Shown: positions 10,034 to 57,710, counted from the stretch's first letter. The stretch is 64,000 bases of DNA from Burkholderiales bacterium (GCA_017307915.1 JAFKGG010000364.1:9980-73979), one strand, 5' to 3'. Notes: generated by a model from the letters alone, not told the origin. Translations and numbers: made by a program.

Positions 10034-10121
10034 GGCGGCGGTGACGATCGAGGCAGCGATGATTGAAGGAATGACTACACGGCCGACACGATACCGTGGA
10101 TGCCGCGCACGCGCGATGGCC

Positions 10122-10170
10122 CCGCCTTAGCGCCGCCTTAGCGCCGCCTTAGCGCCGCCTTGGCGCCGCC
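10122..10170. repeat. Intergenic tandem repeat, 11-bp unit, about 4.5 copies
   Basis: CCGCCTTAGCG x3, CCGCCTTGGCG, CCGCC. Confidence 0.95.
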
Positions 10171-10202
10171 GGTGGGGCCGTCGTCCGTTCGGGCCGGCGC
10201 GT

Positions 10203-11957
10203 TCAGCCCTGCGTGATGACGTTGACCAGCGCCTGGCGCCGTTCCCGCTGCACCACCTCGAGCGCGCGGCGCAGCGCCGGCAGCAACTGCGCGCGCTCGG
10301 TGACCCGCTCACCATGGCCGCCCGAGGCCTCGATGTAGCGCTCGAAATCGGGCATCGGTTCGAGCGACGACAGCGGCGAAGTGCCATGCGCCTTGGCATG
10401 CTGCGCCGCATGCTGGCCCGGATACATGCCCAGCGCCGCCTGCGACACCGCGCCCCAAGCCATGTTGTTGCACAGCACGGTCAGCACCGGCAGCTCGTGC
10501 ATCGCGGCGGCATGGTGGCATACGGCCGGATTGGCGAACAGATACGAGCCGTCGCCCAGCGCCGCGATGACCACGCGATCCGGTGCCGCCTGCTGCGCAC
10601 CCAGCGCCGCCGGCAATCCCCACCCCAGGCCTGCCGACGCCGACACGTAGAAATAGGTGCCGGGTTCGTCGAAGCACATCTGCTGCGGCGCCAGCGGGTA
10701 TTCGTTGACGACGATCGAATCGGCCGGCCGCACCGCCTGCAGACAGCGCGACAGAAAGGCCTTGGTAATCGCGCCGCCCGCCGCCTCGTCGCGCGCCACC
10801 GCCTGCTCGGTCTGCTGGCGCACCGCCCGGGCAGTGGCTTCGAGCCGCGCGCGGCGTTCGCCGGCGCGTGCCTGCGCGCCTCGCGCCTGCAATGCCCGCG
10901 CCAGCCGCTCGATCAGAGCGGCGGCGGTGGCGGTGATCGACAAATCGGATCGATGCGTACGCACCGGATAACGCGAAAACAAGGGATCGCTGCCGCCATG
11001 CGCCACGAACGCCTCGGGCGACGGCTCACTGCGCGACGGCACCCACGGCCCTTCGCATTCCAGGAACAGCAGCGCATCGGCCTGCGCGAACACCGCCTTG
11101 GTCTCATGCCCCAGGTGCAGCGGATGGCTGGCCGGAAAGTTGACGAAGCGCGCGCGCGTCTCGGCCACGCCGATGCCGAAGCGTTCAGCCAGATCGGCCA
11201 GCAGCGCCACCGTGGCCGGATCGGCACCGCTCGATTCGCAGACGATCACCGGATGACGCGCCTCGTCGAACACCTGCGCCAGCCGCGCCAGCGCCGCCTC
11301 GTCGGGCTGCGGCGCGGTCGGCACCGCCACCGGCCGGCCGGCCGCGGCGCCCGGCAGCGACTGCGCCAGCACTTCGCGCGGCAGGCTCAGATACACCGGC
11401 GCGCGTGGATGCGCCATCGCGATGCCGAACGCGCGATCGACGATCTCATCGACATTGGAACCATCGCGCAGCTCGTAGTCCCATTTGACCAGCTCGCGCA
11501 GCATCGCGCCCTGGTCGAACATCTCCTGGCCCCAATGGATCTCGCTGTTGCGCGCGCCGAGCCGGCCGTCTTCGAACAGCGGCGTGCGGCCCGCGGTGAG
11601 CAGCATCGGCACCTGGCCACGCGCCGCGTTCATCAGGCCGCAAACGGCATTGGCCGTGCCCACGCTCACGTGCAGTATCACCGCCTGCATGCGCCCCGAC
11701 ACCATGTAGTGGCCGTGCGCCATGCCGATCGCCAGGTTCTCATGCGTGGCGATCACCGGGTGCGGATACAACTGCGCCGCCGCCGCGCCCGCCTTGGCAT
11801 AGGCCTCGACGATCGGTGCCGTGTCGGTGCCCGAACCGACGTAGAAGCAATCGACGCCCTGTGCCTTCAAACGCCGCAGGAAGCGCTCGGCGGCCGAATG
11901 GCCGTCCGCTTCGCCGGCGACCGGTTGCGCCTGCATCGTCGTCATCTCGTTCTTCAT
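10203..11957 (-). CDS. Thiamine pyrophosphate-dependent enzyme (acetolactate synthase / decarboxylase superfamily)
   Basis: GSGTD, HENLAIGMAHG, TPP motif GDGSY...NN; GAGGAG SD before ATG 11957. Confidence 0.9.
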   Translation of the reverse strand: MKNEMTTMQAQPVAGEADGHSAAERFLRRLKAQGVDCFYVGSGTDTAPIVEAYAKAGAAAAQLYPHPVIATHENLAIGMAHGHYMVSGRMQAVILHVSVGTANAVCGLMNAARGQVPMLLTAGRTPLFEDGRLGARNSEIHWGQEMFDQGAMLRELVKWDYELRDGSNVDEIVDRAFGIAMAHPRAPVYLSLPREVLAQSLPGAAAGRPVAVPTAPQPDEAALARLAQVFDEARHPVIVCESSGADPATVALLADLAERFGIGVAETRARFVNFPASHPLHLGHETKAVFAQADALLFLECEGPWVPSRSEPSPEAFVAHGGSDPLFSRYPVRTHRSDLSITATAAALIERLARALQARGAQARAGERRARLEATARAVRQQTEQAVARDEAAGGAITKAFLSRCLQAVRPADSIVVNEYPLAPQQMCFDEPGTYFYVSASAGLGWGLPAALGAQQAAPDRVVIAALGDGSYLFANPAVCHHAAAMHELPVLTVLCNNMAWGAVSQAALGMYPGQHAAQHAKAHGTSPLSSLEPMPDFERYIEASGGHGERVTERAQLLPALRRALEVVQRERRQALVNVITQG

Positions 11958-45256: not shown

Positions 45257-46075
45257 ATGAACATGGAAGATCCGGCAGCAGTGCCGGACTATGCGCGATT
45301 GTTGCGCCTGGACGGCAAGGGTTTCGTCGTACTCGGCGCCGGACAGGGCATCGGCCGCCAGGTGTGCCATGCGCTGTCGCAGAGCGGCGCGCAGGTGCTG
45401 TGCGTGGATCGCGACGACGCCCTGGCAAGGGCCGTCGCCGACGAGGTGGGCGGCCACGCCTGCGCGGCCGACGTGCTGCAACGCCGTGACGTGGAACGGG
45501 TCTTCGACACGGTACGCAAGACCTTGCAGCGGCCGTTCGGCATCGTCGACATCGTCGGGCGCGCCATGATCGGCCCGATCGACGGCCTCGACGACGACGC
45601 GTATCAGGCACAGCACGACATCGTCTTCAGGCACGCCTGGCTGGCGGTGCAGATCGGCGCGCCGCTGCTGGCCGAGCACGGCGGCGGTTCGATCGTCCTG
45701 GTCGGTTCGCTGTCGGGTGAAGCAGCGCTGCATCACCAGGCCTTGTACGGCTCGGCCAAGGCAGCACTGCATCATTTCGCACGCTGTGCCGCGGTCGAAT
45801 ATGCGCCGCGCGGCGTGCGCATCAACGTCGTGGCGCCCGGCCCGACCCGTACGCCGAGGCTGATGGCGCTGGTCGGCGAAGACTGGTCGGCCATCGAACG
45901 ATCGATCCCGCTGCAACAGGCCGCCGACCCGGCAGACATTGCCGGCGCCGTGCTGTTTCTGGCCAGCGACCTGGCGCGCCAGGTGACCGCGCAGCTCATC
46001 GCGGTGGACGGCGGCGCACTGGCAACCATTTCGCGGCCGTCCAGCGCGGCCATCAAACCACGAGGTCAGGCATGA
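45257..46075 (+). CDS. Short-chain dehydrogenase/reductase
   Basis: GAGQGIG, YGSAK, RINVVAPG. Confidence 0.92.
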   Translation: MNMEDPAAVPDYARLLRLDGKGFVVLGAGQGIGRQVCHALSQSGAQVLCVDRDDALARAVADEVGGHACAADVLQRRDVERVFDTVRKTLQRPFGIVDIVGRAMIGPIDGLDDDAYQAQHDIVFRHAWLAVQIGAPLLAEHGGGSIVLVGSLSGEAALHHQALYGSAKAALHHFARCAAVEYAPRGVRINVVAPGPTRTPRLMALVGEDWSAIERSIPLQQAADPADIAGAVLFLASDLARQVTAQLIAVDGGALATISRPSSAAIKPRGQA

Positions 46076-47379
46076 ACAAGGAAGACAACGAAACGCTGTG
46101 CCGCGTCGGCAAGGGAACGCCGATGGGCGAGTTGCTGCGGCGCTACTGGATTCCCGCCGCGCTTTCCGAAGACCTGCCCGAGCCCGATTGCGATCCGATC
46201 CGGGTGCGCCTGCTGGCCCAGGATTTCGTCGCGTTTCGCGACAGCGCCGGCCGCGTCGGCATTCTCGATGAGCTCTGTCCGCATCGGCGCGCTTCGTTGG
46301 TGCTCGGCCGCACCGGCCACGGCGGCATCGAGTGCCTGTACCACGGCTGGCGGTTTTCGGTGCAAGGCAAGATTCTGCAGATGGCCAATTGCGACGATGA
46401 GAAGCTTGCCGAGCGTTACCGCGCGAACGCCTATCCGGTGCATGAGGTCGGCGGCATCATCTGGGTCTATCTCGGCCCGGCGCAGCATCAGCCGGCGTTT
46501 CCCTTGCATCCGTGGATGGAGGCGGCGCCGGAACATCGCTATACCCGCATCATCGCCAGCCATTCCAACTTCGTGCAGGTGATGGAAGGACTGCTGGATT
46601 CGTCGCACCTGGGCATCCTGCATCAGGATGCACTGCCGGCCGGCGATGGCTCGCAACGCTACGATCATCCGGGCAAGACCGAGAGCTTCCGCTATCTGAC
46701 CAGCCTGCGCGCACCCAAGATCGAAGTGCACGAAACCTCGTTCGGCATGTATTACGCCGCGCTGCGCAAGGTCGTGCACGACGGCCAGCCGATGGTCGAT
46801 ACGCGCCTGACCGCATTCGTCGCGCCGTTCACAGTCTACGTCGCATTCGACCACGGCCGCGTCGCGCTGACGCTGATCCCGGTCGATGACGAACACACCT
46901 ACTTCTACAACATCACCTGGGAAGACGAACGGCCGATCAATACCGAGCCCTATCGCAGCCAGATCGATCTGGCCGGCGGCACGCTGCCCGACGTGGCGCG
47001 GCGCTGGGGCTTCGCCCGTGAAACGCACGGCCAAGCGCGCACCGCCAGCCGCCAGAACAACTGGCTGCAGGACCGCGCAGCCATGCGACGCGGCGAGACC
47101 TATACCGGGCTGCCGCCGTTCACCGCCGAAGACGCGGCCATGACCAGCTCGATGGGGCCGATCTCGGATCGGCAGGAGCTGCTGGTGCCGGCCGACCTGG
47201 CCATCGTGCGCATGCGCCGCATGATGATCGAGGCGGCACGCTCGGTCGCGGCCGGCGGCACACCGCCCGGCTATGAGACGGGGCAGCATCCCGGCGACAT
47301 CGTGCCCTGGGCAAGAAAGCTCAGCCCGGGCGTCGACTGGCGCAGCATGCTGCCCGGAATGGAATCCGTGTCGGCCTAG
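46072..47379 (+). CDS. Second Rieske oxygenase, phthalate-dioxygenase/LigX-like
   Basis: GTPMGELLRRYW, CPH...CLYHGW, DSSHLGILH, EDAAMTSSMG. Confidence 0.92.
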   Translation: MNKEDNETLCRVGKGTPMGELLRRYWIPAALSEDLPEPDCDPIRVRLLAQDFVAFRDSAGRVGILDELCPHRRASLVLGRTGHGGIECLYHGWRFSVQGKILQMANCDDEKLAERYRANAYPVHEVGGIIWVYLGPAQHQPAFPLHPWMEAAPEHRYTRIIASHSNFVQVMEGLLDSSHLGILHQDALPAGDGSQRYDHPGKTESFRYLTSLRAPKIEVHETSFGMYYAALRKVVHDGQPMVDTRLTAFVAPFTVYVAFDHGRVALTLIPVDDEHTYFYNITWEDERPINTEPYRSQIDLAGGTLPDVARRWGFARETHGQARTASRQNNWLQDRAAMRRGETYTGLPPFTAEDAAMTSSMGPISDRQELLVPADLAIVRMRRMMIEAARSVAAGGTPPGYETGQHPGDIVPWARKLSPGVDWRSMLPGMESVSA

Positions 47380-47412
47380 CGTGCCGGCATCGCAGCCGCC
47401 CACAGCGACGAC

Positions 47413-48213
47413 ATGCCGCAGCGCCCTCGCCTGAGCTTCAGTCTGGCCGTGTCGCCGGGCATCAGTGCCCTGTTCGCCGAATGGCCGATGCCCGAGCGTC
47501 TTGCCCGGGCACGCGCCTGCGGCTTCGACGGCATCGAAGGGCCGCCGCCCAGCGATCCGGCGGCGCTGCGCGCCCGCCTCGATGCGCTCGGCATGTCGTT
47601 CACCTGCATGTCGTTCGCGCGCGGCGCCGCTGAGCGGGGCGAGCTGGGCATTGCGTGCCTAGCCGGCCGCTCGCAAGACTTCAAGGATGAACTGGCCCGC
47701 ACCATCGACACCGCCGCCATGCTGGGGTGCAAGCAGCTGCATCCGATGGCCGGCCTGGTGCCCGATGCGTCATCGCTTGCGCGCTGCAAAGATATCTATC
47801 TGGACAATCTGCATCACGCCTGCGCCACCGCTGCGGCGGTGGGCATGCAGATCCTCATCGAACCGATCTGCGCGCAGCGCCAGCCGCGCTATCTGCTGCA
47901 GCGCGCTGCGCAAGCGCTGGAATGGATAAGCGAGATCGGAGCGTCGAACCTGTCCTTGATTCTCGACCTGTACCATACGGCCGCCGAAGGCGAATCCGCG
48001 CCGCGGATCGCCGCTGAGCACGCCGCGTCGATCGGCATCGTGCAGCTTGCGCAGTGGCCGGCGCGAACGCAGCCGGCGCAAGACGACCCGGTGCTGTGCC
48101 AGACATTGGCCGCGCTGGATGAAGCCGATTGGCATAGCTGGATCTGCGCCGAATACGTGCCGACCGGCCCGACGCTGCACTCCCTGGATTGGATACGGAA
48201 CCTGCATTCATGA
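47413..48213 (+). CDS. Hydroxypyruvate isomerase-like TIM-barrel protein
   Basis: ARACGFDGIE, LHPMAG, LIEPI, DLYH, AEYVP. Confidence 0.8.
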   Translation: MPQRPRLSFSLAVSPGISALFAEWPMPERLARARACGFDGIEGPPPSDPAALRARLDALGMSFTCMSFARGAAERGELGIACLAGRSQDFKDELARTIDTAAMLGCKQLHPMAGLVPDASSLARCKDIYLDNLHHACATAAAVGMQILIEPICAQRQPRYLLQRAAQALEWISEIGASNLSLILDLYHTAAEGESAPRIAAEHAASIGIVQLAQWPARTQPAQDDPVLCQTLAALDEADWHSWICAEYVPTGPTLHSLDWIRNLHS

Positions 48214-49076
48214 CCACGACAAGCCCAGCTTCGATCGAAGCCGCCGTGTGCGCGTTCGGTCCGCGCTTCGACTCGGACATTCTGGCGGCCACTCATGACA
48301 TCTATCGGCCGCACATTCCTGAAGGCGACGGCCCCGCGCTGGCCGACGTCAGCTATGGCCCCGATGAACGCCACCGCCTCGACGTCTACCTGCCGCACGG
48401 CGCCGTACGCGGGATCGTGATCTACGTTCACGGCGGCGGCTTCGTACGCGGCGAAAAGAATCTCGACGGCGTCTTCTATCGGAACATCGGGCAGTTCCTC
48501 GCCGGTGAGCATTTCGCCACGGTGGTTCCCAACTATCGCCGCGCGCCGCTGCACGCATGGCCCTGCGGCGCCCAAGACGTGCAGCGCACGGTGCAATGGG
48601 TACACGACAACGCGCAGCATTTCGGCGGCCGCTTGCCGCCGGTGTTCGTCATGGGCCAATCGGCCGGCGCCAGCCATGTCGCCTCGTGGTTCTTCGACGA
48701 CGAAGCCCGCGGCGGCGCGCTGCCGACCGTCAATGGCGTTCTGCTGATGAGCGGCTTCTACAAGGCTCATGCGCCGCTCGCGGAAAATATCGCCGCCTAT
48801 TTCGGCAGCGATGCGACCCTCTACGCGCAGCGCTCGCCGTTGACGCACGTGAAGTCCACGCAAACGCCGCTGTGGTTAAGCGTTGCGGAGCTGGACCCGG
48901 GCAGGATCGCTTCGCACACGTTCGAGCTGGCGCAGGCCATCACCGAGCGCAACGGCCGCAGCCCGGAGTTCGCCTGGTTGCGTGGCCACAATCACGTATC
49001 GACCGTGTTGAGCCTGGGGTCGCCGCAGACCGACGTGAGCGCGGAGATCCTGCGGTTCCTGCATGCCCATGCATAG
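48210..49076 (+). CDS. Alpha/beta hydrolase (HSL-like esterase / arylformamidase-like)
   Basis: RLDVY, VHGGGF, GQSAG, HNH. Confidence 0.88.
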   Translation: MTTTSPASIEAAVCAFGPRFDSDILAATHDIYRPHIPEGDGPALADVSYGPDERHRLDVYLPHGAVRGIVIYVHGGGFVRGEKNLDGVFYRNIGQFLAGEHFATVVPNYRRAPLHAWPCGAQDVQRTVQWVHDNAQHFGGRLPPVFVMGQSAGASHVASWFFDDEARGGALPTVNGVLLMSGFYKAHAPLAENIAAYFGSDATLYAQRSPLTHVKSTQTPLWLSVAELDPGRIASHTFELAQAITERNGRSPEFAWLRGHNHVSTVLSLGSPQTDVSAEILRFLHAHA

Positions 49077-49099: not shown

Positions 49100-49909
49100 T
49101 TACCCGCCCTGATCGCCGCGCGGCATCGTCGCCCGAATCTGCTCGGCCGCCCGCCGCAGCGGCACCAGGAACCGCCTGACCGCTTCCTTCTCATCGCACG
49201 TGCCGGCGATCAGACTCACATTGATGGCGGCGATCGGTTGCCCCGAGGCGTCGCGCACCGGCACCCCGATGCCGGCAATCGCCGGATCGAGCACACCGTC
49301 GATCCAGGCATAGCCGTCGCGCTGGATGCGGTCGAGATGCTCGCGCAGTTCGCGCGCCCATACACCGGCCTTGACGGGGCCGGCACGCGGCGCGGCCGCT
49401 TGCACATAGTCGCGCCAGGCGGCCTCGGGCAAGGCCGCCAGCAACACCCGCCCGATCGAGACCAGATGGGCCGGCAGGCGGCTGCCGACGCTCAGGTTGG
49501 TCGCCAGGATGCGTTGCGACGGAATGCGCAGCACGTAGACGATCTCGGTGCCGTGCAGCACCCCCATCGAACACGATTCGCCGACGTGGCTGCGCAATTC
49601 TTCGAGCGCCGGCTGCGCGACCGGCCAATACGGCTGCGTGTACAGATACGACAGGCCCAGCGACAGCACCTTCGGCGTCAACGCGAACGATTTGCCGTCG
49701 GTTTCGGCGTATTCCTGCTCGCACAGCGTCAGCAGCAGCCGCTTGGCCACGCTGCGCGGCAATGCGCTGGCATCGGCGATCTGCGCGATGGTCTTGCGGC
49801 GCGAACCCTTGCCCATCGCATCGATGACGGAAAGCCCGCGAGCAAAGGCGCGGACGAACGATTCGGAGTCTGTATTGCTCACGGCTGGTTCATGAGTGGA
49901 TGGCATCAC
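49100..49909 (-). CDS. IclR-family regulator, PcaR/PobR-like
   Basis: FVRAFARGLSVI, LTPKVLSLG, GSRLPAH..SIGRVLLA. Confidence 0.92.
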   Translation of the reverse strand: MMPSTHEPAVSNTDSESFVRAFARGLSVIDAMGKGSRRKTIAQIADASALPRSVAKRLLLTLCEQEYAETDGKSFALTPKVLSLGLSYLYTQPYWPVAQPALEELRSHVGESCSMGVLHGTEIVYVLRIPSQRILATNLSVGSRLPAHLVSIGRVLLAALPEAAWRDYVQAAAPRAGPVKAGVWARELREHLDRIQRDGYAWIDGVLDPAIAGIGVPVRDASGQPIAAINVSLIAGTCDEKEAVRRFLVPLRRAAEQIRATMPRGDQGG

Positions 49910-49970
49910 TCGCCAAGGCTACCCGATCCGCGCGGCGCCGAGACGCGCTTGACAGAACGTCGGCCAGAAG

Positions 49971-50014
49971 TTTAATGTGGATTAAATCGGTGACATTCGT
50001 TCGCCTGGCGGTTA
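49971..50014. promoter_or_regulatory. Candidate operators in the iclR / bug divergent promoter
   Basis: TTTAAT-GTGG-ATTAAA (49971-49986) and CGTTCGCCTGGCGGTTA (49998-50014). Confidence 0.45.
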
Positions 50015-50084: not shown

Positions 50085-51050
50085 ATGAATCCTCTGTTTC
50101 GCGCCGCGCTCGTCGCTGCCGGCATGGCCGCCGCCGCCATGGTTCAAGCGCAGAACTTTCCCAGCCAATCGGTGCGTATGATCGTTCCGTTCCCGCCCGG
50201 CGGCACCACCGACATCCTGGCGCGCGACGTCGCAGCCCAGTTGAGCACGCGCTGGAACGTGGCGGTCGTCGTCGACAACAAGGGGGGTGCCAGCGGCACG
50301 ATCGGATCGGAACAACTGGTGCGCTCGGCGCCCGACGGCTACACGCTGATGGTCACGGCCACGCACCACGTCATCAACCCGAGCTTGATGAAGAAGCTGC
50401 CGTACGACACGAAGCGCGATTTCACGCCGATCGCGCAGATCGCGCTGGTTCCCAACGTGCTGGTGGTGCACCCCAGCGTGCCGGCCAAGTCGGTGGCTGA
50501 ACTGATCCAGCTAGCCAAGGCCAAGCCGGGTTCGCTGAGCTTCGGCTCGGCCGGCATCGGCGGCGCCAATCATCTGTCGGGCGAACTGTTCAAGGCCATG
50601 GCCAACGTCGACATGGTGCACATCCCCTACAAGGGCGCGGCGCCGTCGCTGAACGACCTGCTGGGCGGCCAGATTCCGATGATGTTCGATTCGGTGCCCG
50701 GCGTGATCCAGCACATCCGCGACGGCAGGCTGCGCGCGCTCGGCGTCACGTCGATCCGCCGCGTTCCCAGCCTGCCGAATGTGCCCACCATCGACGAAGC
50801 CGGCGTGAAAGGCTTCGAGGCGACCGCCTGGTTCGGCATGTACGCACCGCCCAACATGTCGCCCGCGCTGGCCGCGCGCATCGCCGGCGACGTGGCCGAG
50901 GTGCTGAAGTCACCGGCCATCCAGGATCGCTTCGAGAAGTTCAGCGCCGTCAGCACGCCGATGACGCAGCCGCAGTTCGTCGATTTCGTGAACAAGGAAA
51001 TCGACAAGTGGGCCGACGTCGTCAAGCGCGCCAAGATCGAGGCGCAGTGA
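50085..51050 (+). CDS. Bug/TctC substrate-binding protein
   Basis: Signal peptide, PFPPGGTTD, DNKGGASG, PDGYT, HIPYKGAA. Confidence 0.94.
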   Translation: MNPLFRAALVAAGMAAAAMVQAQNFPSQSVRMIVPFPPGGTTDILARDVAAQLSTRWNVAVVVDNKGGASGTIGSEQLVRSAPDGYTLMVTATHHVINPSLMKKLPYDTKRDFTPIAQIALVPNVLVVHPSVPAKSVAELIQLAKAKPGSLSFGSAGIGGANHLSGELFKAMANVDMVHIPYKGAAPSLNDLLGGQIPMMFDSVPGVIQHIRDGRLRALGVTSIRRVPSLPNVPTIDEAGVKGFEATAWFGMYAPPNMSPALAARIAGDVAEVLKSPAIQDRFEKFSAVSTPMTQPQFVDFVNKEIDKWADVVKRAKIEAQ

Positions 51051-51055
51051 TCGCT

Positions 51056-51090
51056 GCATGGGGCACGCCGCATGCCGGCCTGCCCCATGC
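51056..51090. terminator. Hairpin between convergent genes
   Basis: GCATGGGGCA...TGCCCCATGC, 10-bp stem; no U-tract. Confidence 0.45.
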
Positions 51091-51147
51091 CGTGGCATGG
51101 ACTGCGCGGCCCGGCCCGTATAGGGCGCGGCGCCGCGCGCAGACCGC

Positions 51148-52416
51148 TCAGATCGCCCCGCGAGCACGCATCGCAGCGATCTCGCTGTCGTCCTTCCCCA
51201 GCACTTCGCGCAGCACGGCCTCGGTATCCTGCCCCAGCACCGGCGGCGCGCGATCGTAGACCGGCGGCGTGGCCGCCAGCCGCAAGGGGCTGGCGATCGT
51301 GCCGGCCATCGCGCCATCGGCGCGCGGCACGTCCACGCGCAGCCCGCGGTGACGAACCTGCGGATCCTCGAAGGTCTGCCGGTAGTCGTTGACCGGCCCG
51401 CAGGGCACGCCGACCGCTTCGAGCCGTTCGATCCAGCAGGCCGTGGTCTGCGTGCGCATCGTGCGGGCCAGCTCATCGACCAGCGCCTCGCGCCCCAGGA
51501 TGCGGCCGGTGACCGTCACGTAGCGCGGATCGGCCGCCAGGTCGTCGCGGCCGATCGCCTCGCAGTAGCGCTGCCACTGCGCATCGTTGCCGACCGCCAC
51601 GATCACCTCGCCATCAGACGAAGCGAAGGTCTGATAAGGCACCAGGCTGGCATGCGCATTGCCGTAGCGGTGCGGCACCTTGCCGCTGGCGAAGTAGCCG
51701 GTGACCTGGTTGCCGCCCAGCGCAACCACGCAATCGAGCAGCGCCATGTCGATGTACTGCCCCACGCCGGTGACGCTGCGCGAGTTCAGCGCGGACAGGA
51801 TCGCGATCGTGGCATACATGCCGGTGAGCACGTCGGCGATCGCGATGCCCACCTTCTGCGGCCCGCCGCCCGGCGCATCGTCGCGCTCGCCGGTGATGCT
51901 CATCAGCCCGCCCAGGCCCTGGAACACGAAATCGTAGCCGGGCTTGTGCGCCGATGGGCCGCTCTGCCCATAGCCGGTGATCGAGCAATAGACGAGACCC
52001 GGATTGATCTCGCGCAGTTGCTCGTAGCCGAGCCCATAGCGGACCAGATCGCCGACCTTGTAGTTCTCGATCAGCACGTCGGACTTGGCCACCAACTGCC
52101 TGATCAGCGCCTGCCCTTCGGGCCCGGCGATGTCCACCGTCATCGACTTCTTGCCGCGATTGGCCGCTGCGAAGTAGGTGGAATCGCCGCTGTCCTTGCC
52201 GTCCGCGTCTTTCAGCCATGGCGGCCCCCAGCGACGCGTATCGTCACCGACGCCCGGGCGCTCGATCTTGATCACCTCGGCGCCCATGTCGGCGAGATTC
52301 TGCGTGCACCACGGCCCGGCCAGGATTCGCGACAGATCCAGAACACGAATGTGCGACAGCGCACCGCGTTGCCTGCTCGAGTCCACGCTCACGCCTCCAT
52401 CGGACATGCGATTCAA
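51148..52416 (-). CDS. Class III CoA-transferase (close paralog of 23462..24715)
   Basis: DLSRILAGPWCTQNLADMGAE, NRGKKS, ENYKVG, GIAIAD. Confidence 0.93.
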   Translation of the reverse strand: MNRMSDGGVSVDSSRQRGALSHIRVLDLSRILAGPWCTQNLADMGAEVIKIERPGVGDDTRRWGPPWLKDADGKDSGDSTYFAAANRGKKSMTVDIAGPEGQALIRQLVAKSDVLIENYKVGDLVRYGLGYEQLREINPGLVYCSITGYGQSGPSAHKPGYDFVFQGLGGLMSITGERDDAPGGGPQKVGIAIADVLTGMYATIAILSALNSRSVTGVGQYIDMALLDCVVALGGNQVTGYFASGKVPHRYGNAHASLVPYQTFASSDGEVIVAVGNDAQWQRYCEAIGRDDLAADPRYVTVTGRILGREALVDELARTMRTQTTACWIERLEAVGVPCGPVNDYRQTFEDPQVRHRGLRVDVPRADGAMAGTIASPLRLAATPPVYDRAPPVLGQDTEAVLREVLGKDDSEIAAMRARGAI

Positions 52417-52862
52417 CGACCCGCCGAAATCGGCAGCTCGACCATCGCTTCGCCGGTGGCGACCACTTCATCGCGCTGGTTCTTCACCTGGATGTCGAGC
52501 AGCGCATAGCAGGCGCTGTCGGTACGCTTGAGCGACGACACCGTGCCGTGCGGGCGGATCGTGTCGCCGGGCTTGACCGGCACGCGCCAGCGCGTCTCCA
52601 GCCGGCGATGGATACCGCCGATCGGCAACAGCCAATCGGTCAGCATCCGGCTGATGATGCCGAAGTTGGTCATGCCGTGCATGATGATGCCGCCGAACTG
52701 GGTCTTGCCGAAGCTGCCCTTCATGTAGTTGTCGTCGAGATGCAGCGGATTGAAGTCCAGCGAGGCTTCGCAGAACTCGCGGATCGTTTCGCGCGTCGGC
52801 GAAAACGGCTGGCCCTGGATCTGAAAGCCCGGGCGGATGTCGGTATTGGCGGAGCTGGTCAT
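52413..52862 (-). CDS. MaoC-family (hot-dog) R-specific hydratase subunit
   Basis: SLDFNPLHLD, GIIMHGM, PVKPGDTI. Confidence 0.88.
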   Translation of the reverse strand: MTSSANTDIRPGFQIQGQPFSPTRETIREFCEASLDFNPLHLDDNYMKGSFGKTQFGGIIMHGMTNFGIISRMLTDWLLPIGGIHRRLETRWRVPVKPGDTIRPHGTVSSLKRTDSACYALLDIQVKNQRDEVVATGEAMVELPISAGR

Positions 52863-52872
52863 GTCGGTTTCC

Positions 52873-53352
52873 TCAGGCCGGGCGAATCGTCCAGCCGCGG
52901 CCGGAGCAGATCACTTCGTCGTTCTGGTTGAAGAACACGTTGTCGTGGATCACGAACAAACGGTCTTTCTTGATGAACTTGTCGAGCGCCCGCGCTTGCA
53001 GGCGGATCATGTCGCCCGGGCGCGCCGGAATGTTGTAGCTCCAGGACTGGCCTGCGTTCACCGTGCCCGGGCTGCGCATCCAGTCATCGGTGGGCGTGCA
53101 CGAGAACATCAACAGGATGTGGATCGACGGCGGCGCGATCAGCCCGCCATAGCGTGAACGCCGGGCATATTCCTCGTCGAAGTACAGCGGGTTCAGGTCG
53201 TTGACCGAACGGCAGTACTTCTGGATCGCCTCCAGCGTCAGCAGGTAGGGAATCGTCGGCCGCGGCTCGCCGGGCACGATCTGGTCCCAGGTCTTGCGCT
53301 GCGCGTTGTCTTTCCAGAAATCGGTTTCGAACTCTTGCGTCGTTTGCGTCAT
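52873..53352 (-). CDS. MaoC/FAS1-like dehydratase N-terminal-type subunit
   Basis: VNDLNPLYFDEEYA, GLIAPP, PARPGDMI. Confidence 0.85.
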   Translation of the reverse strand: MTQTTQEFETDFWKDNAQRKTWDQIVPGEPRPTIPYLLTLEAIQKYCRSVNDLNPLYFDEEYARRSRYGGLIAPPSIHILLMFSCTPTDDWMRSPGTVNAGQSWSYNIPARPGDMIRLQARALDKFIKKDRLFVIHDNVFFNQNDEVICSGRGWTIRPA

Positions 53353-53382
53353 GAAGGAGCCCTTCGGATCAGGGGATTCGTT

Positions 53383-55125
53383 TCAAAGAGGTACCGCGCA
53401 GGCGCCATGTGCGACGCCCAGAATGCGGTGGAAGCTATCAGCCAGCATGGCGGCACCTTCGCCGTTGCGGCCGGCGGCCAGCCGGCGCGCGATGAAGCCG
53501 TCGGGCCGGATCAGGAAGGCATCCGACGGATCGGCGCCGTACAGATGTGAGAACTTGTCGTCTTCGGGCACATAGGCGCCGCTCTCGCCGACGAACAGCA
53601 CCGACAAGGGCACGCCGAGCTCATCGATGACCTGCTGTGCCGCCTTTGCCCAGACGTCGGCCTTCTCCTGGATCAGCAGGGTGAAGCCGGGCCCCCACAG
53701 ATCGACGATCGAGACGCGCCGGCCTTCGGCGTTGCGCAGCCAGACATGCGGCGCGCGCGCGCCGGGCAGCGTGGTCTCGACGTAGTCGGCCAAGGTAGGC
53801 GGCGGCGGTGCGCTGCACTCATCGCGGATGATCGCCGCCGACTCGTACACCGTGCCGAGCTGATAGCCCGTGTGCAACACGCTGTTGTCGCCATGCGCCT
53901 GCGCATGCTGGCGAAGAAAGCGCAGCCCGACGTCGCTGATCGTCCCTTTGGTGAACAGATCGGGCTCGCCGATCAGCGCGGCCGTCACGATCGAGCGGAA
54001 GTTCATCGAGTTGTAGGTCGCCGACTTCACGGTCAGCAGCCCCTTGGCCTTGCGCTCGGGTTCGTACGTGTCGAGCAGGGCCGATGCCGCAATGCCCTTG
54101 ACCACCAGCCCCAGCTTCCATGCCAGGTTGTTCACGTCTTGGATGCCCGAGTTCATGCCGAACCCGCCCCAGGGCGAATGCCAATGCGCCGCGTCGCCGG
54201 CAAACAGCACATTGCCTTCGCGCCACTTACGCAGCAGCCCGGTGGTGTAGTCGAAACGATAGAGCTGCACGATCTCGATCGGCAGTTCCGGCATGCCCAG
54301 TGCCCCACGCAGCCGCTCGAGCACCACGTCTTCATCGGGCAGCGTTTCTTCGTCGTGGCCGAAGCTGTAGCGCCACAGCCCGGTTTCGGGGTGCTGGCTG
54401 CCGAACCAGCCCGCATAACGCGGATCGAGAATGAACGAGTGGAAGAAGCCGTCGCGGCCCAGCGTGTCTTCCAGATCGGCGCGGAACTCGACCAGGATCT
54501 GGTTGCCGAACGTCGGGCCATGATCCTGCCCGTTGGCGATACGGCCGCGGATGAAACTGTGCGCGCCATCGCAGGCCACCAAGTAGCGGCTGCGCACTTC
54601 GGTCACGGCCTGGGAATCGATCTGCTGCACCTTCAGACGAACCGCGTCATCGCCGCTGTCCACGTCGATGACGCGCGTGGCGAAGTGCAGCCCCACATTG
54701 GGCCATTGATCAGCCTGCCGGCAGATCGCAGCCTCGTATTCCGAGGCCGGCACCTTGCGCGGATAAGCGGGGCTCAGGTGCTCCCACTTCTTCATGTAAT
54801 TGAAATCGGAACCGCTCGATTGCCGGATCTCGGCAACCGGCCCCTTGGCCACGTTCAGATAAAAACCCTGGCCATTGGAACGCGCGATCGACCAGCCGGC
54901 CTTCTCCAGCCGGTTCCACACGCCCCATTGCCGGAACAATTCGCCGGTCGAGGCATGCACGTACTGCCCCTTGGGCAGCGTCGTGGTGCTGGCGCGCTTT
55001 TCGAACAAGGCCACGCTCAAGCCGGCGCGCCCGAGCAGGTAGGCGCAAGCCAGGCCCGACGGGCCGCCACCGCAGATCGCGACGTCGACCGAGTAATCCG
55101 CGTCCTTCTTCGACAGGGCGTTCAT
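53383..55125 (-). CDS. FAD-dependent aromatic monooxygenase (PheA/TfdB-like, class A)
   Basis: GGGPSG, ACDGAHS, AGDAAH..SPWGGFGMNSGIQDVNNLAWKL, C-terminal LIRPDG. Confidence 0.92.
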   Translation of the reverse strand: MNALSKKDADYSVDVAICGGGPSGLACAYLLGRAGLSVALFEKRASTTTLPKGQYVHASTGELFRQWGVWNRLEKAGWSIARSNGQGFYLNVAKGPVAEIRQSSGSDFNYMKKWEHLSPAYPRKVPASEYEAAICRQADQWPNVGLHFATRVIDVDSGDDAVRLKVQQIDSQAVTEVRSRYLVACDGAHSFIRGRIANGQDHGPTFGNQILVEFRADLEDTLGRDGFFHSFILDPRYAGWFGSQHPETGLWRYSFGHDEETLPDEDVVLERLRGALGMPELPIEIVQLYRFDYTTGLLRKWREGNVLFAGDAAHWHSPWGGFGMNSGIQDVNNLAWKLGLVVKGIAASALLDTYEPERKAKGLLTVKSATYNSMNFRSIVTAALIGEPDLFTKGTISDVGLRFLRQHAQAHGDNSVLHTGYQLGTVYESAAIIRDECSAPPPPTLADYVETTLPGARAPHVWLRNAEGRRVSIVDLWGPGFTLLIQEKADVWAKAAQQVIDELGVPLSVLFVGESGAYVPEDDKFSHLYGADPSDAFLIRPDGFIARRLAAGRNGEGAAMLADSFHRILGVAHGACAVPL

Positions 55126-55964
55126 ACGGCGATCCTTTTCGTGTCGCTGCGCGCCATCCGCGCCGGCGATTTGTTCCATTCCGACCATGAACCGACGAAC
55201 AGCCGCGGCCGGGTGCCGAGCGATGACAGAGTCAACACCAGCAGCGCCGACAGCACGCCGCCGCCGCAATACACGACCACGTCGCGTTGCGGCGATACGC
55301 CGGCGTCGGCATAGATCTGCGAGATCTCGCGGATCGTGCGCAGCGTCGCGCCCGGCGTCCATTGATCGGCGGCAGGCAGATTGATCGCACGCGGGATGGC
55401 GCCGGCCTGGAACGAGCCCTCGTCGCGCGCATCGATCAGCAGCGCGTCTTCAGGCAGCGTCTCGACTTCCTGCACATCGATCGACGGCAGCTGGCCCGGC
55501 TGCAGCACCAGCGGCACGCCGCTGGCCTGCAGCCGCGGATGCGAATCGCCGCGCGCCACCGGTCCGCCGTTGTTGATCCAGGCTTTCATGCCGCCGTCGA
55601 GCACCTTCACGTCTTTCAGGCCAGCCCACTTCAGCACCCACCAGCCGCGCGCTGCCAGGGCTGCCGATGGGCCGTAGGTCACTACTTCGGTCTCGCCGTC
55701 GACCCCCCAACCCAGCAGCGTCTGGCGCAGGCGGTCGATGTCGGGCAGCGGCAGGTTGCCGCTGTCGGCCGACGGCTCTGCGGCGAAGACCTCGCGAATC
55801 TGCGCATGAACGGCGCCGAGGATGTGGCAGTCGAGAAAGCTCTCGTACTCTTCGTCGGGCTCGCCGAGCCGCACATCGATGAACAAGCGGTTGCGCGAAG
55901 GTGCCGCCAGCAGATCGGCGGCCTGGACGAGATCCTGCGAGACGGATGACAACAAGTGCTTCAT
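55122..55964 (-). CDS. Tandem-domain rhodanese / sulfurtransferase (MST-like)
   Basis: HILGAV, ARGWWVLKWAG..DVKVLDGG, IDAR, YCGGGV active loop, GSWSEW. Confidence 0.88.
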   Translation of the reverse strand: MKHLLSSVSQDLVQAADLLAAPSRNRLFIDVRLGEPDEEYESFLDCHILGAVHAQIREVFAAEPSADSGNLPLPDIDRLRQTLLGWGVDGETEVVTYGPSAALAARGWWVLKWAGLKDVKVLDGGMKAWINNGGPVARGDSHPRLQASGVPLVLQPGQLPSIDVQEVETLPEDALLIDARDEGSFQAGAIPRAINLPAADQWTPGATLRTIREISQIYADAGVSPQRDVVVYCGGGVLSALLVLTLSSLGTRPRLFVGSWSEWNKSPARMARSDTKRIAV

Positions 55965-55995
55965 CGGAGCCCTCGATGCGTACGTGGATGAAGGC

Positions 55996-56979
55996 TCAAT
56001 TGCCGCCGGTCAGGTTCTTCTCCTTGACCAGTCGCCGCCACGACTTCGTTTCGGCAGCGATCACTTCCTGCAAGGCCGCCATGCTGGTGTCGGGAATCTC
56101 GGCGCCCCACCCCATCGCGGTCTCGATCACGGCCGGATCGGCGGCGATCGCCTGGATCTGCGTCGACAGGCTCTTCACCACGGCGGGATCCATGTTCTTC
56201 GGGCCGAACAGCGCGATCCATGCGCCCATCGACGGAATGCCGCCGATGCCGGCCTCTTTCAGCGTGGGCACCTTGGGCAGCGTCTTGCTGCGCGTGGTGG
56301 TGCTTACCGCCAGCGCGTCGAGCGTGCCGGCCTTGATCTGCGGCCATGCCGTGACCAGCGAGATGATCGCCACTTCCACGTCACCGCTGAGCAGCCCCTG
56401 CAATTGCCGTGACCCGGTGGCATACGGGATGTGCACCATGTCGATGTTGGCGTTGATGTTGATCAGCTCGCCGAGGAAGTGCATGCCGGTGCCGACGCCG
56501 GCCGACGCGAAATTCGTCTTGCCGGGCCGCGCGCGAGCGCTGGCCAGGAAGTCACTGATGCTCGCGTACTTGCCTGCCTTAGCGACGATCACGTAGGGCG
56601 TGGTCACCAGTTGCGCGATCGGCTGCAACTCTTTGTCCGGATCGACGTTCTTTTCGTCCATCACGGTGCGAATCGCGATCGACGAGCCGGTGCCCAGCAG
56701 CGTGTAGCCGTCTTTCGGCGCGGGCACCACCACCTTGGCAGCCACTTCGCCGCCGGCGCCGGGCCTGACCTCGACCACCATCGGCTGCTTGTAGCGCTCG
56801 GCGAGCCGGTCGGAATACAGGCGCACCGAGCTGGCAGGAAAGCCGTCGGCCCAGGGCATGATGATCTTCACCGGCTTGTCGGGGTAGCTCTGTGCCAGGG
56901 CAAGGCCGCCGGTTGCAGACAGAACGATGGCGGCAACGCCGGCCCTGGCCAGCGCCGAAGCGCGGTTGAGAATTTGCAT
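55996..56979 (-). CDS. Bug/TctC substrate-binding protein
   Basis: YPDKPVKIIMP, EVRPGAGG, PKDGYT, HIPY. Confidence 0.9.
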   Translation of the reverse strand: MQILNRASALARAGVAAIVLSATGGLALAQSYPDKPVKIIMPWADGFPASSVRLYSDRLAERYKQPMVVEVRPGAGGEVAAKVVVPAPKDGYTLLGTGSSIAIRTVMDEKNVDPDKELQPIAQLVTTPYVIVAKAGKYASISDFLASARARPGKTNFASAGVGTGMHFLGELININANIDMVHIPYATGSRQLQGLLSGDVEVAIISLVTAWPQIKAGTLDALAVSTTTRSKTLPKVPTLKEAGIGGIPSMGAWIALFGPKNMDPAVVKSLSTQIQAIAADPAVIETAMGWGAEIPDTSMAALQEVIAAETKSWRRLVKEKNLTGGN

Positions 56980-57093
56980 GGTCCGTTCCTTTGCCTTGAA
57001 GGATGACCGAGGCGCGGGTGGGCCGCGACCGGTGTGGGTGTCTCCGGAACTCCGGGTTTTTCGTTGACTCCCCCGAGCAGGGAGAATCCTTTA

Positions 57094-57131
57094 TGACCGC
57101 AGAGCGGTTATTGATGACCGTTCTGCGACTA
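57094..57131. promoter_or_regulatory. Tandem candidate operators upstream of the bug / rhodanese / monooxygenase operon
   Basis: TGACCGC-AGA-GCGGTTA (57094-57110) and TGACCGTTCTGCGACTA (57115-57131), 21-bp spacing. Confidence 0.5.
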
Positions 57132-57416
57132 TTATGGCGCGAATGGCGGCTCTGTCAAGACGCACGCGCGCAGGCCCGGCGCCCGTAGGAACGCAGAGCA
57201 ACTCAACAATGAGATTCAGGCGCAAGGCATTGCCCTGCCCGTCGGCGCGGGCCGAGGCACGAGGTGATCTCGACCGGCAAGATCGAGATCGAAACGTCGC
57301 GTGAAGAAACGCGGAGAAGCGCTAAGAAGATCGGGCAGCAGCCGACCGCCGCTCAGGTGTCGCGGCAGTCGTCGCCCTCGGGGTGATCGCGGCGAATGCG
57401 GCGGGCGCCGCTTCGC

Positions 57417-57710
57417 TCACACCCCTTCGATGATGCGGATCTCGCGCTCGACGGCGTCGGGCCCCAGGGCCGCCAGCGCCTCACGGTATGCCGGGCTGTC
57501 GTAGGCCGCCAGCGCTGCTTGCAGACTGTCGAACTCGACCAGCACGGTTCTCTGCATCACGCCGTGTTCCTTCACAGCGGCCGGCGAGCCGCGCGCGATG
57601 AAGCGGCCGCCGGCCGCGGCCAGGGCCGGGCCGGCCAGCTTTGCATAGGCGGCAAGCGCATCATCGTCCTTGACGACGCGGTAGACGCTCACCCAATAGG
57701 CTTTGGGCAT
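57417..57710 (-). CDS. DUF1330-family protein
   Basis: MPKAYW, GGRFIARG, VLVEFDSLQAALAAYDSPAY..AL, REIRIIEG. Confidence 0.88.
   Translation of the reverse strand: MPKAYWVSVYRVVKDDDALAAYAKLAGPALAAAGGRFIARGSPAAVKEHGVMQRTVLVEFDSLQAALAAYDSPAYREALAALGPDAVEREIRIIEGV

What the first reader, a model, noticed from the sequence alone, without database searches (positions are those of the whole stretch)
51148..56979. Rhodanese translationally coupled to an aromatic FAD monooxygenase, then a MaoC heterodimer and CoA-transferase
Seen: Bug, sulfurtransferase (CGGGV loop), 4-bp overlap, TfdB/PheA-like monooxygenase, two complementary hot-dog subunits, class III CoA-transferase. Established: rhodanese/MST enzymes move sulfane sulfur; paired MaoC subunits form heterodimeric R-hydratases. 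Inference: a pathway for a sulfur-bearing aromatic or heterocyclic acid in which sulfur is removed or detoxified by the rhodanese alongside hydroxylation. I do not recognise this combination.
Basis: partly seen in the sequence, partly recalled or inferred. Interest (0 to 1): 0.6.

Follow-up and report, generated by a model that had tools for sequence, protein, structure and literature searches.

The report
Conserved rhodanese–flavin monooxygenase gene pair
A sulfur-transfer enzyme (rhodanese) and an oxygen-inserting flavoenzyme are locked together as an overlapping gene pair, always next to an uptake transporter, in distantly related bacteria; nobody has studied the pair, and it most likely strips sulfur from an imported sulfur-containing organic acid.

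Summary
On the minus strand lie six tightly spaced genes: Bug/TctC binding protein, tandem rhodanese (CGGGV loop), group A FAD monooxygenase starting in an ATGA overlap, a catalytic and a non-catalytic MaoC hot-dog gene, and a class III CoA-transferase.

The rhodanese ortholog sits directly upstream of the monooxygenase in 26 of 26 genome loci, which span Burkholderiales, Alphaproteobacteria and Actinobacteria. In the reverse direction it holds in 8 of 8 informative metagenome loci. None of 71 generic rhodaneses is followed by this monooxygenase, and a 34%-identical monooxygenase has no rhodanese.

More distant pairs (38-44% identity) sit beside SsuA-like ABC importers, an NtaA/DmoA-family monooxygenase and extra rhodaneses. 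This links the pair to organosulfur chemistry.

The cluster is really two modules:
- A: transporter, rhodanese, monooxygenase.
- B: IclR, MaoC pair, second Bug, CoA-transferase, often with a DUF35-fused thiolase-like protein. B also occurs alone.

The substrate remains unknown. I found no paper on the pair, and this scan has not found it before on other DNA. Best reading: oxidative desulfurisation of an imported sulfur-bearing aromatic acid, with persulfide capture by the rhodanese (about 0.4).

The parts
57131..57158 (-). Promoter-like site TTGACA-16 nt-CATAAT upstream of the Bug gene
   Evidence: 11 of 12 consensus positions. It is the only such site in 50900-57500; shuffles give a mean of 0.8.
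57098..57127 (.). Inverted repeat with 14-nt arms just downstream of the -10 hexamer; candidate repressor operator
   Evidence: 86% complementary, 2 nt between arms. The half-site does not recur elsewhere in the window above chance. The regulator is not identified.
55996..56979 (-). Bug/TctC-family periplasmic solute-binding protein of module A, with a signal-peptide-like N-terminus
   Evidence: PF03401, 184 bits. Orthologs at 55-71% identity lie next to the rhodanese in most Burkholderiales loci. Other lineages have MFS, TAXI-TRAP or ABC importers in its place.
55122..55964 (-). Tandem-domain rhodanese, 280 aa, catalytic Cys233 in the loop YCGGGVLSA
   Evidence: The loop, DARDE and SGNLPLP motifs are invariant or nearly invariant in 19 and 120 orthologs. 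The family is a narrow clade: one representative at 3e-95, then 4e-60 and 3e-48.
55122..55125 (-). ATGA stop/start overlap between the rhodanese and the monooxygenase
   Evidence: A 4-nt or 1-nt overlap is seen in about 32 of 42 related loci, including Alphaproteobacteria, Antricoccus and the distant locus L041.
53383..55125 (-). Group A FAD-dependent monooxygenase, 580 aa, with a C-terminal thioredoxin-like domain
   Evidence: It is below every NCBIfam cut-off (best PRK06126, 301 against 445 bits). 50 positions are fixed in the rhodanese-linked clade and differ in the outgroup. There is no invariant Cys.
52873..53352 (-). MaoC-a: hot-dog subunit lacking the catalytic His (D-L-N-P-L-Y); module B
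   Evidence: Orthologs share 69-86% identity.
52413..52862 (-). MaoC-b: hot-dog subunit with the hydratase-2 motif D-F-N-P-L-H; module B
   Evidence: The best solved relative is the (R)-specific enoyl-CoA hydratase 1iq6.
51148..52416 (-). Class III CoA-transferase; its start overlaps the MaoC-b stop by 4 bp; module B
   Evidence: PF02515, 422 bits; nearest models are succinate-glutarate CoA-transferase (449 against 750 bits) and succinyl-CoA:mesaconate CoA-transferase (329 against 700 bits).
50085..51050 (+). Second Bug/TctC binding protein (Bug2), the one that travels with module B elsewhere
   Evidence: It is 56-67% identical to the Bug gene lying between MaoC-b and the CoA-transferase in other loci.
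49100..49909 (-). IclR-family regulator, ortholog of the regulator divergent from module B elsewhere
   Evidence: Counterparts at 44-64% identity flank module B in other genomes.

Best explanation
The core is a three-part unit found across phyla: an uptake transporter for an organic anion, a dedicated tandem rhodanese and a dedicated group A flavoprotein monooxygenase. The last two are made from overlapping genes.

I propose that the unit removes sulfur oxidatively from an imported sulfur-bearing aromatic or heteroaromatic carboxylate, a thiol, thione or related group. The monooxygenase would use NAD(P)H and O2 to oxygenate at or beside the carbon-sulfur centre. The rhodanese would take the released or activated sulfur onto Cys233 as a persulfide. 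That would keep reactive sulfur out of solution and pass it to cellular acceptors.

In this window the unit has been joined in one operon to a second, separable module. In that module a class III CoA-transferase activates an unsaturated acid and a heterodimeric MaoC hydratase hydrates it. In other genomes a DUF35-fused thiolase-like protein follows, suggesting ChsH1/ChsH2/Ltp2-style hydration and cleavage. That module probably handles a side chain or the carbon skeleton linked to the same substrate.

Shown: gene order, coupling, reciprocal co-occurrence, conserved catalytic motifs and modularity. Inferred: that the substrate contains sulfur, the order of steps, persulfide formation and any physical contact between the two proteins.
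For: - The rhodanese lies directly upstream of the monooxygenase in 26 of 26 genome loci. The same holds in Mycobacterium, Antricoccus, Afipia and Pigmentiphaga records.
- In the reverse direction, 8 of 8 informative metagenome rhodanese orthologs are followed by the monooxygenase, while 0 of 71 generic rhodaneses are.
- Neither gene was found in 400 sampled genomes of the same order, so they are absent together.
- A stop/start overlap is kept in about 32 of 42 loci.
- Pairwise distance matrices of the two proteins correlate at r = 0.88, reached by 0 of 2000 permutations.
- The catalytic loop YCGGGVLSA is invariant.
- Pairing persists at 38-44% identity. There the neighbours are an SsuA-like binding protein with ABC importer, an NtaA/DmoA-family FMN monooxygenase (437 bits, above its cut-off), a DszC/SfnB-type ACAD and extra rhodaneses. 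A 34%-identical homolog has no rhodanese.
- The importer type changes with lineage (TctC, MHS-type MFS, HpaX-like MFS, TAXI-TRAP, Peripla_BP_6 ABC), but all are organic-anion types.
- Module B lies within 10 kb in 13 of 21 informative loci, in several different arrangements, yet is found in only 6 of 400 sampled genomes.
Against: - No substrate is identified and no experiment exists. Sulfur content of the substrate rests only on the presence of a rhodanese and on three distant loci.
- The regulators near the pair are IclR or AraC types, not sulfur-starvation regulators.
- The monooxygenase has no invariant cysteine to relay a persulfide.
- The rhodanese lacks the Arg-bearing segment that binds 3-mercaptopyruvate or thiosulfate in SseA, so its donor is unclear.
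- No rhodanese-monooxygenase fusion was seen among the hits listed.
- One rhodanese at 43-46% identity is followed by an SDR on a short contig.
- NtaA/DmoA-family enzymes and SsuA-like binding proteins also act on sulfur-free compounds.
Confidence: 0.4

Rival explanations
1. Leaving-group detoxification. The monooxygenase performs an ipso-hydroxylation that expels a toxic small anion, either cyanide from a hydroxybenzonitrile-type acid or sulfite from an aryl sulfonate or sulfinate. The rhodanese then neutralises it, turning cyanide into thiocyanate or combining sulfite with sulfane sulfur to give thiosulfate.
For: Ipso-substituting group A enzymes are among the solved relatives (PnpA, and a chain named pentachlorophenol 4-monooxygenase). 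Classical rhodanese chemistry covers both reactions (established knowledge). The ssu-like context of distant pairs would fit sulfonate or sulfinate substrates. The DNA occurs in sludge and bioreactor metagenomes.
Against: Detoxifying rhodaneses are usually generic. Here a narrow, dedicated clade is translationally coupled and co-inherited with the monooxygenase. Cyanide detoxification needs a sulfane donor that the locus does not supply. Nothing in the loci points to nitriles.
Confidence: 0.17
2. Sulfur insertion. The rhodanese carries a persulfide (from thiosulfate or a cellular donor) that is added to a ring which the monooxygenase has activated, for example a quinone. This would form a carbon-sulfur bond, as the rhodanese-domain enzyme EanB does at an imidazole ring.
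For: EanB chains appear among the solved relatives of the rhodanese (6ktv and others, E about 1e-10). The catalytic Cys is invariant. MbnF, a monooxygenase of a sulfur-rich natural product pathway, is among the nearest NCBIfam models (230 bits, far below its cut-off).
Against: The context is catabolic: importers, IclR/AraC regulators, a CoA-transferase and a hydratase. There are no biosynthetic or export genes. The EanB and MbnF similarities are generic family-level matches.
Confidence: 0.1
3. A non-sulfur role. The rhodanese-fold protein would serve the monooxygenase as a redox or thiol partner, a substrate-presenting subunit or a stabiliser, with no sulfane sulfur involved. Other rhodanese-fold proteins act as phosphatases, arsenate reductases or the tRNA hydroxylase TrhO.
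For: The Arg-bearing substrate segment of SseA is missing. Scores are far below the sulfurtransferase equivalog cut-off. The regulators are carbon-catabolic in type.
Against: The six-residue Cys loop is of the sulfurtransferase length and type (CGGGVL against CGSGVT in SseA), not the longer phosphatase loop. Distant pairs sit with extra standard rhodaneses and ssu-like genes.
Confidence: 0.13
4. Fortuitous neighbours: the rhodanese is a housekeeping gene that merely happens to lie beside the monooxygenase.
For: Generic rhodaneses do sit in lineage-specific synteny with unrelated genes, for example rhodanese-DUF6491-CoA-transferase next to ETF genes in marine loci.
Against: The adjacency is reciprocal, exclusive and cross-phylum. 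It shows conserved translational coupling, joint absence and correlated divergence.
Confidence: 0.02

Closest known systems
E. coli SseA (3-mercaptopyruvate sulfurtransferase, PDB 1urh) and other tandem-domain rhodaneses
   Same: Two rhodanese domains, about 280 aa, with the catalytic Cys in a six-residue neutral glycine-rich loop of the C-terminal domain (CGGGVL here, CGSGVT in SseA). SseA is the best solved match (E 5e-19).
   Different: An 11-residue segment of SseA that carries the conserved Arg residues is absent. The NCBIfam score is 81 bits against a cut-off of 250. The protein belongs to a narrow clade that is always paired with one monooxygenase subfamily.
Group A flavoprotein aromatic hydroxylases with a thioredoxin-like C-terminal domain: RdmE (3ihg), HbpA (4z2t and others), a 2,4-dichlorophenol 6-monooxygenase (6u0p)
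   Same: Same domain architecture and FAD/NAD(P)H motifs (GxGxxG, DG, GD). About 30% identity, E 1e-46 to 4e-52.
   Different: It reaches no curated family cut-off. The region after the GD motif is remodelled to HWHSPWGG, and 50 positions are clade-specific. None of those relatives is known to me to need a rhodanese partner (own knowledge).
HadA/HadB and ChsH1/ChsH2(/Ltp2) heteromeric MaoC-type hydratases of mycobacteria
   Same: Two adjacent small hot-dog genes, one with the hydratase-2 Asp/His motif and one without the His. There are weak HadA/HadB model hits. In other genomes module B ends with a thiolase-like protein carrying the OB_ChsH2_C (DUF35) domain.
   Different: Scores are far below the HadA/HadB cut-offs. 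The context is not fatty-acid synthesis or steroid degradation. Activation is by a class III CoA-transferase. The thiolase-like gene is absent from this window, and the best paralog in the genome is 52% identical.
Flavin-dependent organosulfur desulfurisation systems (Dsz 4S pathway, Ssu/Sfn/Msu)
   Same: Oxygen- and flavin-dependent release of sulfur from organic compounds. Distant rhodanese-monooxygenase pairs lie beside NtaA/DmoA-family, SsuA-like and DszC/SfnB-type genes.
   Different: Those systems use two-component FMNH2-dependent luciferase-like or ACAD-fold monooxygenases and release sulfite. Here the enzyme is a single-component group A FAD enzyme paired with a sulfurtransferase.
Sulfide oxidation units that pair a flavoprotein with rhodanese (SQR with PDO-rhodanese; CstA/CstB)
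   Same: A flavoprotein and a rhodanese are encoded together, with sulfane sulfur carried on a rhodanese cysteine (established knowledge).
   Different: SQR is a quinone-linked disulfide-reductase-type flavoprotein acting on inorganic sulfide. No persulfide dioxygenase is present here, and the importers point to an organic acid.

Membership tests
Tandem-domain rhodanese / sulfurtransferase (PF00581 x2) | Two rhodanese domains in one chain of about 280 aa | tested here: met
   two stretches of PF00581, 101.7 bits; aligned over residues 28-264 with SseA.
Tandem-domain rhodanese / sulfurtransferase (PF00581 x2) | Catalytic Cys at the start of a six-residue loop in the C-terminal domain | tested here: met
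   Cys233 in YCGGGVLSA aligns with the CGSGVT loop of SseA. It is invariant in 120 orthologs.
3-mercaptopyruvate sulfurtransferase (SseA/MST equivalog NF008557) | Score above the curated cut-off | tested here: not met
   81.1 bits against a cut-off of 250.
3-mercaptopyruvate sulfurtransferase (SseA/MST equivalog NF008557) | Arg-bearing substrate-binding segment before the HIPGA motif | tested here: not met
   the SseA segment 'evdeprpglrr' has no counterpart; the alignment shows an 11-residue gap.
Group A flavoprotein monooxygenase (PF01494 with PF21274 C-terminal domain) | FAD_binding_3 domain with GxGxxG, DG and GD motifs, plus the C-terminal thioredoxin-like domain | tested here: met
   PF01494 218.8 bits, PF21274 45.7 bits. 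ICGGGP, CDGAHS and GDAAH are seen in the consensus.
TfdB / PheA / MhpA-type phenol hydroxylase equivalogs | Score above a curated equivalog or subfamily cut-off | tested here: not met
   best is PRK06126, 301 against 445 bits. MhpA-type models give 175 against 390, and phenol 2-monooxygenase gives 96 against 560.
Heteromeric MaoC-type (R)-hydratase (HadAB / ChsH1-ChsH2 type) | Adjacent hot-dog genes, one with D-x-N-P-x-H and one lacking the His | tested here: met
   MaoC-b has DFNPLH and MaoC-a has DLNPLY. Pfam PF01575 and PF13452.
Heteromeric MaoC-type (R)-hydratase (HadAB / ChsH1-ChsH2 type) | Physical heterodimer and hydratase activity | not testable with these tools
   Inferred from gene pairing that is conserved in all module B loci.
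Class III CoA-transferase (PF02515) | Full-length match to the family profile | tested here: met
   422.5 bits over profile positions 1-366 of 366.
Succinate-glutarate or succinyl-CoA:mesaconate CoA-transferase equivalogs | Score above the curated cut-off | tested here: not met
   449 against 750 bits and 329 against 700 bits.
Tripartite tricarboxylate transporter receptor (TctC/Bug) | Full-length PF03401 match | tested here: met
   184.5 bits (55996-56979) and 238 bits (50085-51050). No TctA/TctB genes are in the operon.

The most novel reading that the evidence does not exclude
The pair is a previously undescribed two-protein carbon-sulfur bond-cleaving system. A single-component group A flavoprotein monooxygenase oxygenates an aryl or heteroaryl thiol or thione, and a dedicated rhodanese captures the sulfur as a protein persulfide. 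Bacteria from several phyla would use it either to eat such compounds or to scavenge their sulfur.
Probability: 0.3. Interest if true: 0.8.

Novelty: new variant of a known kind. Interest (0 to 1): 0.6.

Why it matters
Both protein families are textbook, but a dedicated, translationally coupled partnership between them is not described in anything I could search. If the pair desulfurises aromatic thiols or thiones, it would add a new enzymatic route for organosulfur turnover, distinct from the Dsz, Ssu and SQR/PDO systems. It would also explain how sludge and soil bacteria handle such compounds, and would give a compact two-gene tool for biodesulfurisation or persulfide generation. Because the unit is small (importer, rhodanese, monooxygenase) and several cultured isolates carry it, the question can be tested directly. 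The separable MaoC, CoA-transferase and DUF35-thiolase module is a second lead: a ChsH/Ltp2-like hydratase-cleavage system outside steroid metabolism.

Tried and rejected
- Complex prediction of rhodanese with monooxygenase gave no verdict (score 0.01). It counts neither for nor against binding.
- Fusion search: no rhodanese-monooxygenase fusion appeared among the listed near-length hits, the longer proteins or the 150 best rhodanese representatives. The long hits there are multi-rhodanese proteins. This is weak negative evidence only.
- Six literature searches and one paper read (PMC11852219) found only a generic SseA induced on dibenzothiophene in Gordonia. Nothing was found on this pair.
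- Earlier findings of this scan, searched by place, sequence and words, show no look-alike.
- Protein Atlas look-up returned only 'FAD-dependent monooxygenase' clusters.
- Operator search: the promoter palindrome half-site does not recur in the IclR-Bug2 spacer or elsewhere above chance, so the regulator of the six-gene operon is unassigned.
- My first crude ORF caller for neighbourhood clustering lost many genes. I relied on tblastn with the window's proteins and on precomputed gene calls instead.
- The rhodanese-DUF6491-CoA-transferase synteny in marine loci looks like lineage housekeeping synteny next to ETF and ACAD genes. I did not pursue it as a relative of this system.
- Specific substrates considered but unsupported by any gene in the loci: ergothioneine or thiourocanate (no ergothionase-type lyase), thiophene-2-carboxylate (the core unit lacks CoA activation in many genomes), mercaptosuccinate or 3-mercaptopropionate (no cysteine-dioxygenase-type enzyme).
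- RNA-library contigs cover all six genes and bridge three junctions, but DNA carry-over cannot be excluded. This is only a weak hint of expression.

Full report
**What is in the window.**
The window is about 66% G+C. It lies on a 78-kb contig of a 6.1-Mb draft genome with 521 contigs, 94% complete and 4.75% contaminated. Six genes run from 56979 down to 51148 on the minus strand:
- a TctC/Bug binding protein;
- a 280-aa tandem rhodanese;
- a 580-aa FAD monooxygenase;
- two small hot-dog proteins;
- a class III CoA-transferase.

The rhodanese loop reads VYCGGGVL. The monooxygenase starts in 'ATGA' over the rhodanese stop, behind an AAGGA. MaoC-b and the CoA-transferase also overlap by 4 bp, and the other gaps are 10-31 nt. 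A near-consensus promoter sits before the Bug gene and is followed by a palindrome with 14-nt arms. A second Bug gene (50085-51050, plus strand) and an IclR gene (49100-49909, minus strand) lie just beyond the CoA-transferase.

**Is the rhodanese-monooxygenase adjacency meaningful?**
The monooxygenase has many uncharacterised orthologs at 53-73% identity.
- A scan of one genome per species returned 26 loci from Burkholderiales (Lacisediminimonas, Pigmentiphaga, Diaphorobacter, Ottowia, Ramlibacter, Rhodoferax, Variovorax, Cupriavidus, Caballeronia) and Alphaproteobacteria (Afipia, Oricola, Roseovarius, Anderseniella). In all 26 the rhodanese ortholog (54-68% identity) lies directly upstream.
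- The same order occurs in Mycobacterium (MFS, rhodanese, monooxygenase) and in Antricoccus.
- Reverse test: a metagenome scan with the rhodanese alignment gave 9 orthologs, and the monooxygenase follows in all 8 whose contig continues. None of 71 generic rhodaneses (27-41% identity) has it.
- Neither gene was found in 400 sampled genomes of the same order, including two of the same genus.
- A 4-nt or 1-nt stop/start overlap is kept in about 32 of 42 loci.
- The pairwise divergences of the two proteins correlate at r = 0.88, reached by 0 of 2000 permutations. This shows that they travel as one unit, though related genomes are not independent samples.

**How far does the pairing reach?**
- Monooxygenase homologs at 44%, 42% and 38% identity still have a rhodanese beside them or in the same locus.
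- Rhodaneses at 40% identity are followed by a 42%-identical monooxygenase.
- A 34%-identical monooxygenase from Methylocapsa has none.
- One rhodanese at 43-46% identity is followed by an SDR on a 3-kb contig.

The rhodanese clade is narrow. In a library of 1.8 billion representatives there is one hit at 3e-95, then 4e-60, then 3e-48, and then generic rhodaneses.

**The sulfur link.**
In the 42% locus the pair again overlaps in ATGA. It lies among an ABC permease, an NtaA/DmoA-family FMN monooxygenase (437 bits, above its cut-off), an SsuA-like binding protein (76.8 bits, below its cut-off), a second standard rhodanese (CGGGVTA), an ABC ATPase and a DszC/SfnB-type ACAD. The 38% locus has two rhodaneses, an NMT1-type ABC importer and the monooxygenase. 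These look like sulfur-acquisition loci. They are the only evidence independent of the rhodanese itself that the pair deals with organosulfur compounds. It rests on three loci and on families that also act on sulfur-free substrates.

**The two proteins.**
Rhodanese:
- Its best solved relative is E. coli SseA, and the Cys loops align.
- The loop YCGGGVLSA and the DARDE and SGNLPLP motifs are invariant or nearly so.
- It lacks the 11-residue Arg-bearing segment of SseA and scores far below the MST model.
- I file it as a tandem rhodanese, not as an MST.

Monooxygenase:
- It has the full group A architecture and motifs.
- Its solved relatives are RdmE, HbpA and a 2,4-dichlorophenol monooxygenase at about 30% identity.
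- It reaches no curated cut-off.
- 50 positions are fixed in the rhodanese-linked clade and differ in the outgroup, including HWHSPWGG after the GD motif.
- It has no invariant cysteine, so a Cys-to-Cys persulfide relay into it is unlikely.

**Two modules, not one pathway.**
Module A is importer, rhodanese and monooxygenase.
- The importer changes with lineage: TctC; an MHS-type MFS (shikimate-transporter-like, 303 bits); an HpaX-like MFS; TAXI-TRAP; a Peripla_BP_6 ABC system; or an SsuA-like ABC system.
- All of these import organic anions.
- The regulators are IclR or AraC types.
- In Pigmentiphaga, Afipia, Mycobacterium, Cupriavidus, Caballeronia and Lacisediminimonas, nothing else accompanies module A.

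Module B is IclR, then divergently MaoC-a, MaoC-b, Bug2 and the CoA-transferase.
- It lies within 10 kb of A in 13 of 21 informative genome loci, in several arrangements, and in Antricoccus.
- It also stands alone, at 79-86% MaoC-a identity, in 6 of 400 sampled genomes that lack A.
- There and in four A+B loci it ends with an SCP-x-type thiolase-like protein, which in one genome carries an N-terminal OB_ChsH2_C (DUF35) domain.
- With one catalytic and one His-less hot-dog subunit, this recalls the ChsH1/ChsH2/Ltp2 hydratase-aldolase system.
- The window has no close ortholog of that thiolase-like gene (best 52% identity).
- Among the loci seen, the window's order, with the MaoC genes directly after the monooxygenase, is unique.

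The frequent but rearranged linkage argues that A and B act on related compounds. The data do not say which comes first.

**Mechanism.**
I commit to oxidative desulfurisation. The imported acid carries a thiol, thione or similar sulfur group. The flavoenzyme oxygenates at or next to the C-S centre. The rhodanese Cys233 captures the sulfur as a persulfide. Module B then activates and hydrates an unsaturated side chain or the carbon skeleton. I put this at about 0.4. Only the genetic facts are shown; every chemical step is inferred.

Rivals:
- detoxification of an expelled anion, cyanide or sulfite (0.17);
- sulfur insertion into an activated ring, as with EanB (0.10);
- a non-sulfur partner role (0.13);
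- chance adjacency (0.02).

**Other evidence.**
Near-identical DNA occurs in bioreactor, sludge, activated-sludge, biofilm, aquatic and soil metagenomes from at least ten studies. Contigs from activated-sludge RNA libraries match all six genes. They bridge the Bug/rhodanese, rhodanese/monooxygenase and MaoC-b/CoA-transferase junctions. DNA carry-over cannot be excluded, so this is only a weak hint of expression.

**Novelty.**
Six full-text searches found no paper on the pair, and the scan's own records hold no look-alike. The components are known kinds and the dedicated partnership is new, so I rate it 'new variant of a known kind'. It is a good, compact enzyme-discovery target with cultured carriers available.

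Noticed in passing
L051:5525-7168 (minus strand), L052:12951-14330, L015:5080-6471: Module B in other Burkholderiales ends with an SCP-x-type thiolase-like protein (PF22691; NCBIfam PRK06158, 621 bits). In L051 it carries an N-terminal OB_ChsH2_C (DUF35) domain. This looks like a ChsH1/ChsH2/Ltp2-style hydratase plus cleavage enzyme set outside steroid metabolism.
   Followed up: partly
L038:6588-7844, L032:2541-3905, L058:524-1735: A second, smaller group A monooxygenase (PRK07538 family, 512 bits; distantly like HpxO and 3-hydroxybenzoate 6-monooxygenase) accompanies module B in Antricoccus and in two Burkholderiales-type loci.
   Followed up: no
L071:6977-9917 and 12 further metagenome loci (L072, L074, L075, L083, L096, L109-L111, L113, L119, L126, L132): A generic tandem rhodanese (33-35% identity to the window's) is followed by a DUF6491 gene and a class III CoA-transferase 46-57% identical to the window's, next to ETF and acyl-CoA dehydrogenase genes. 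This is probably lineage synteny in marine bacteria, but it is a recurrent rhodanese/CoA-transferase neighbourhood.
   Followed up: partly
L033 (Diaphorobacter aerolatus), about 9926-11631: The monooxygenase ortholog is matched over only 74% of its length, and the deposited protein is 392 aa (P0095), although the ATGA junction with the rhodanese is intact. It may be a decaying copy.
   Followed up: no
window 57098-57158: A strong sigma-70-like promoter is followed at once by a palindrome with 14-nt arms. The half-site is not found in the IclR-Bug2 spacer, which instead holds TTTAAT-GTGG-ATTAAA at about 49970-49986. The six-gene operon and Bug2 may therefore answer to different regulators.
   Followed up: partly
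whole genome G000: G000 is 6.1 Mb in 521 contigs with 4.75% contamination, while the two genomes of the same genus are 3.8-3.9 Mb and lack modules A and B. The contig may be accessory DNA, or may be mis-binned.
   Followed up: no
window 46072-49076: Just upstream on the plus strand lie a LigXa-like Rieske oxygenase, a xylose-isomerase-like TIM barrel protein and an alpha/beta hydrolase. The scan has already noted this cluster as a separate finding, and I saw no link to the present operon.
   Followed up: no
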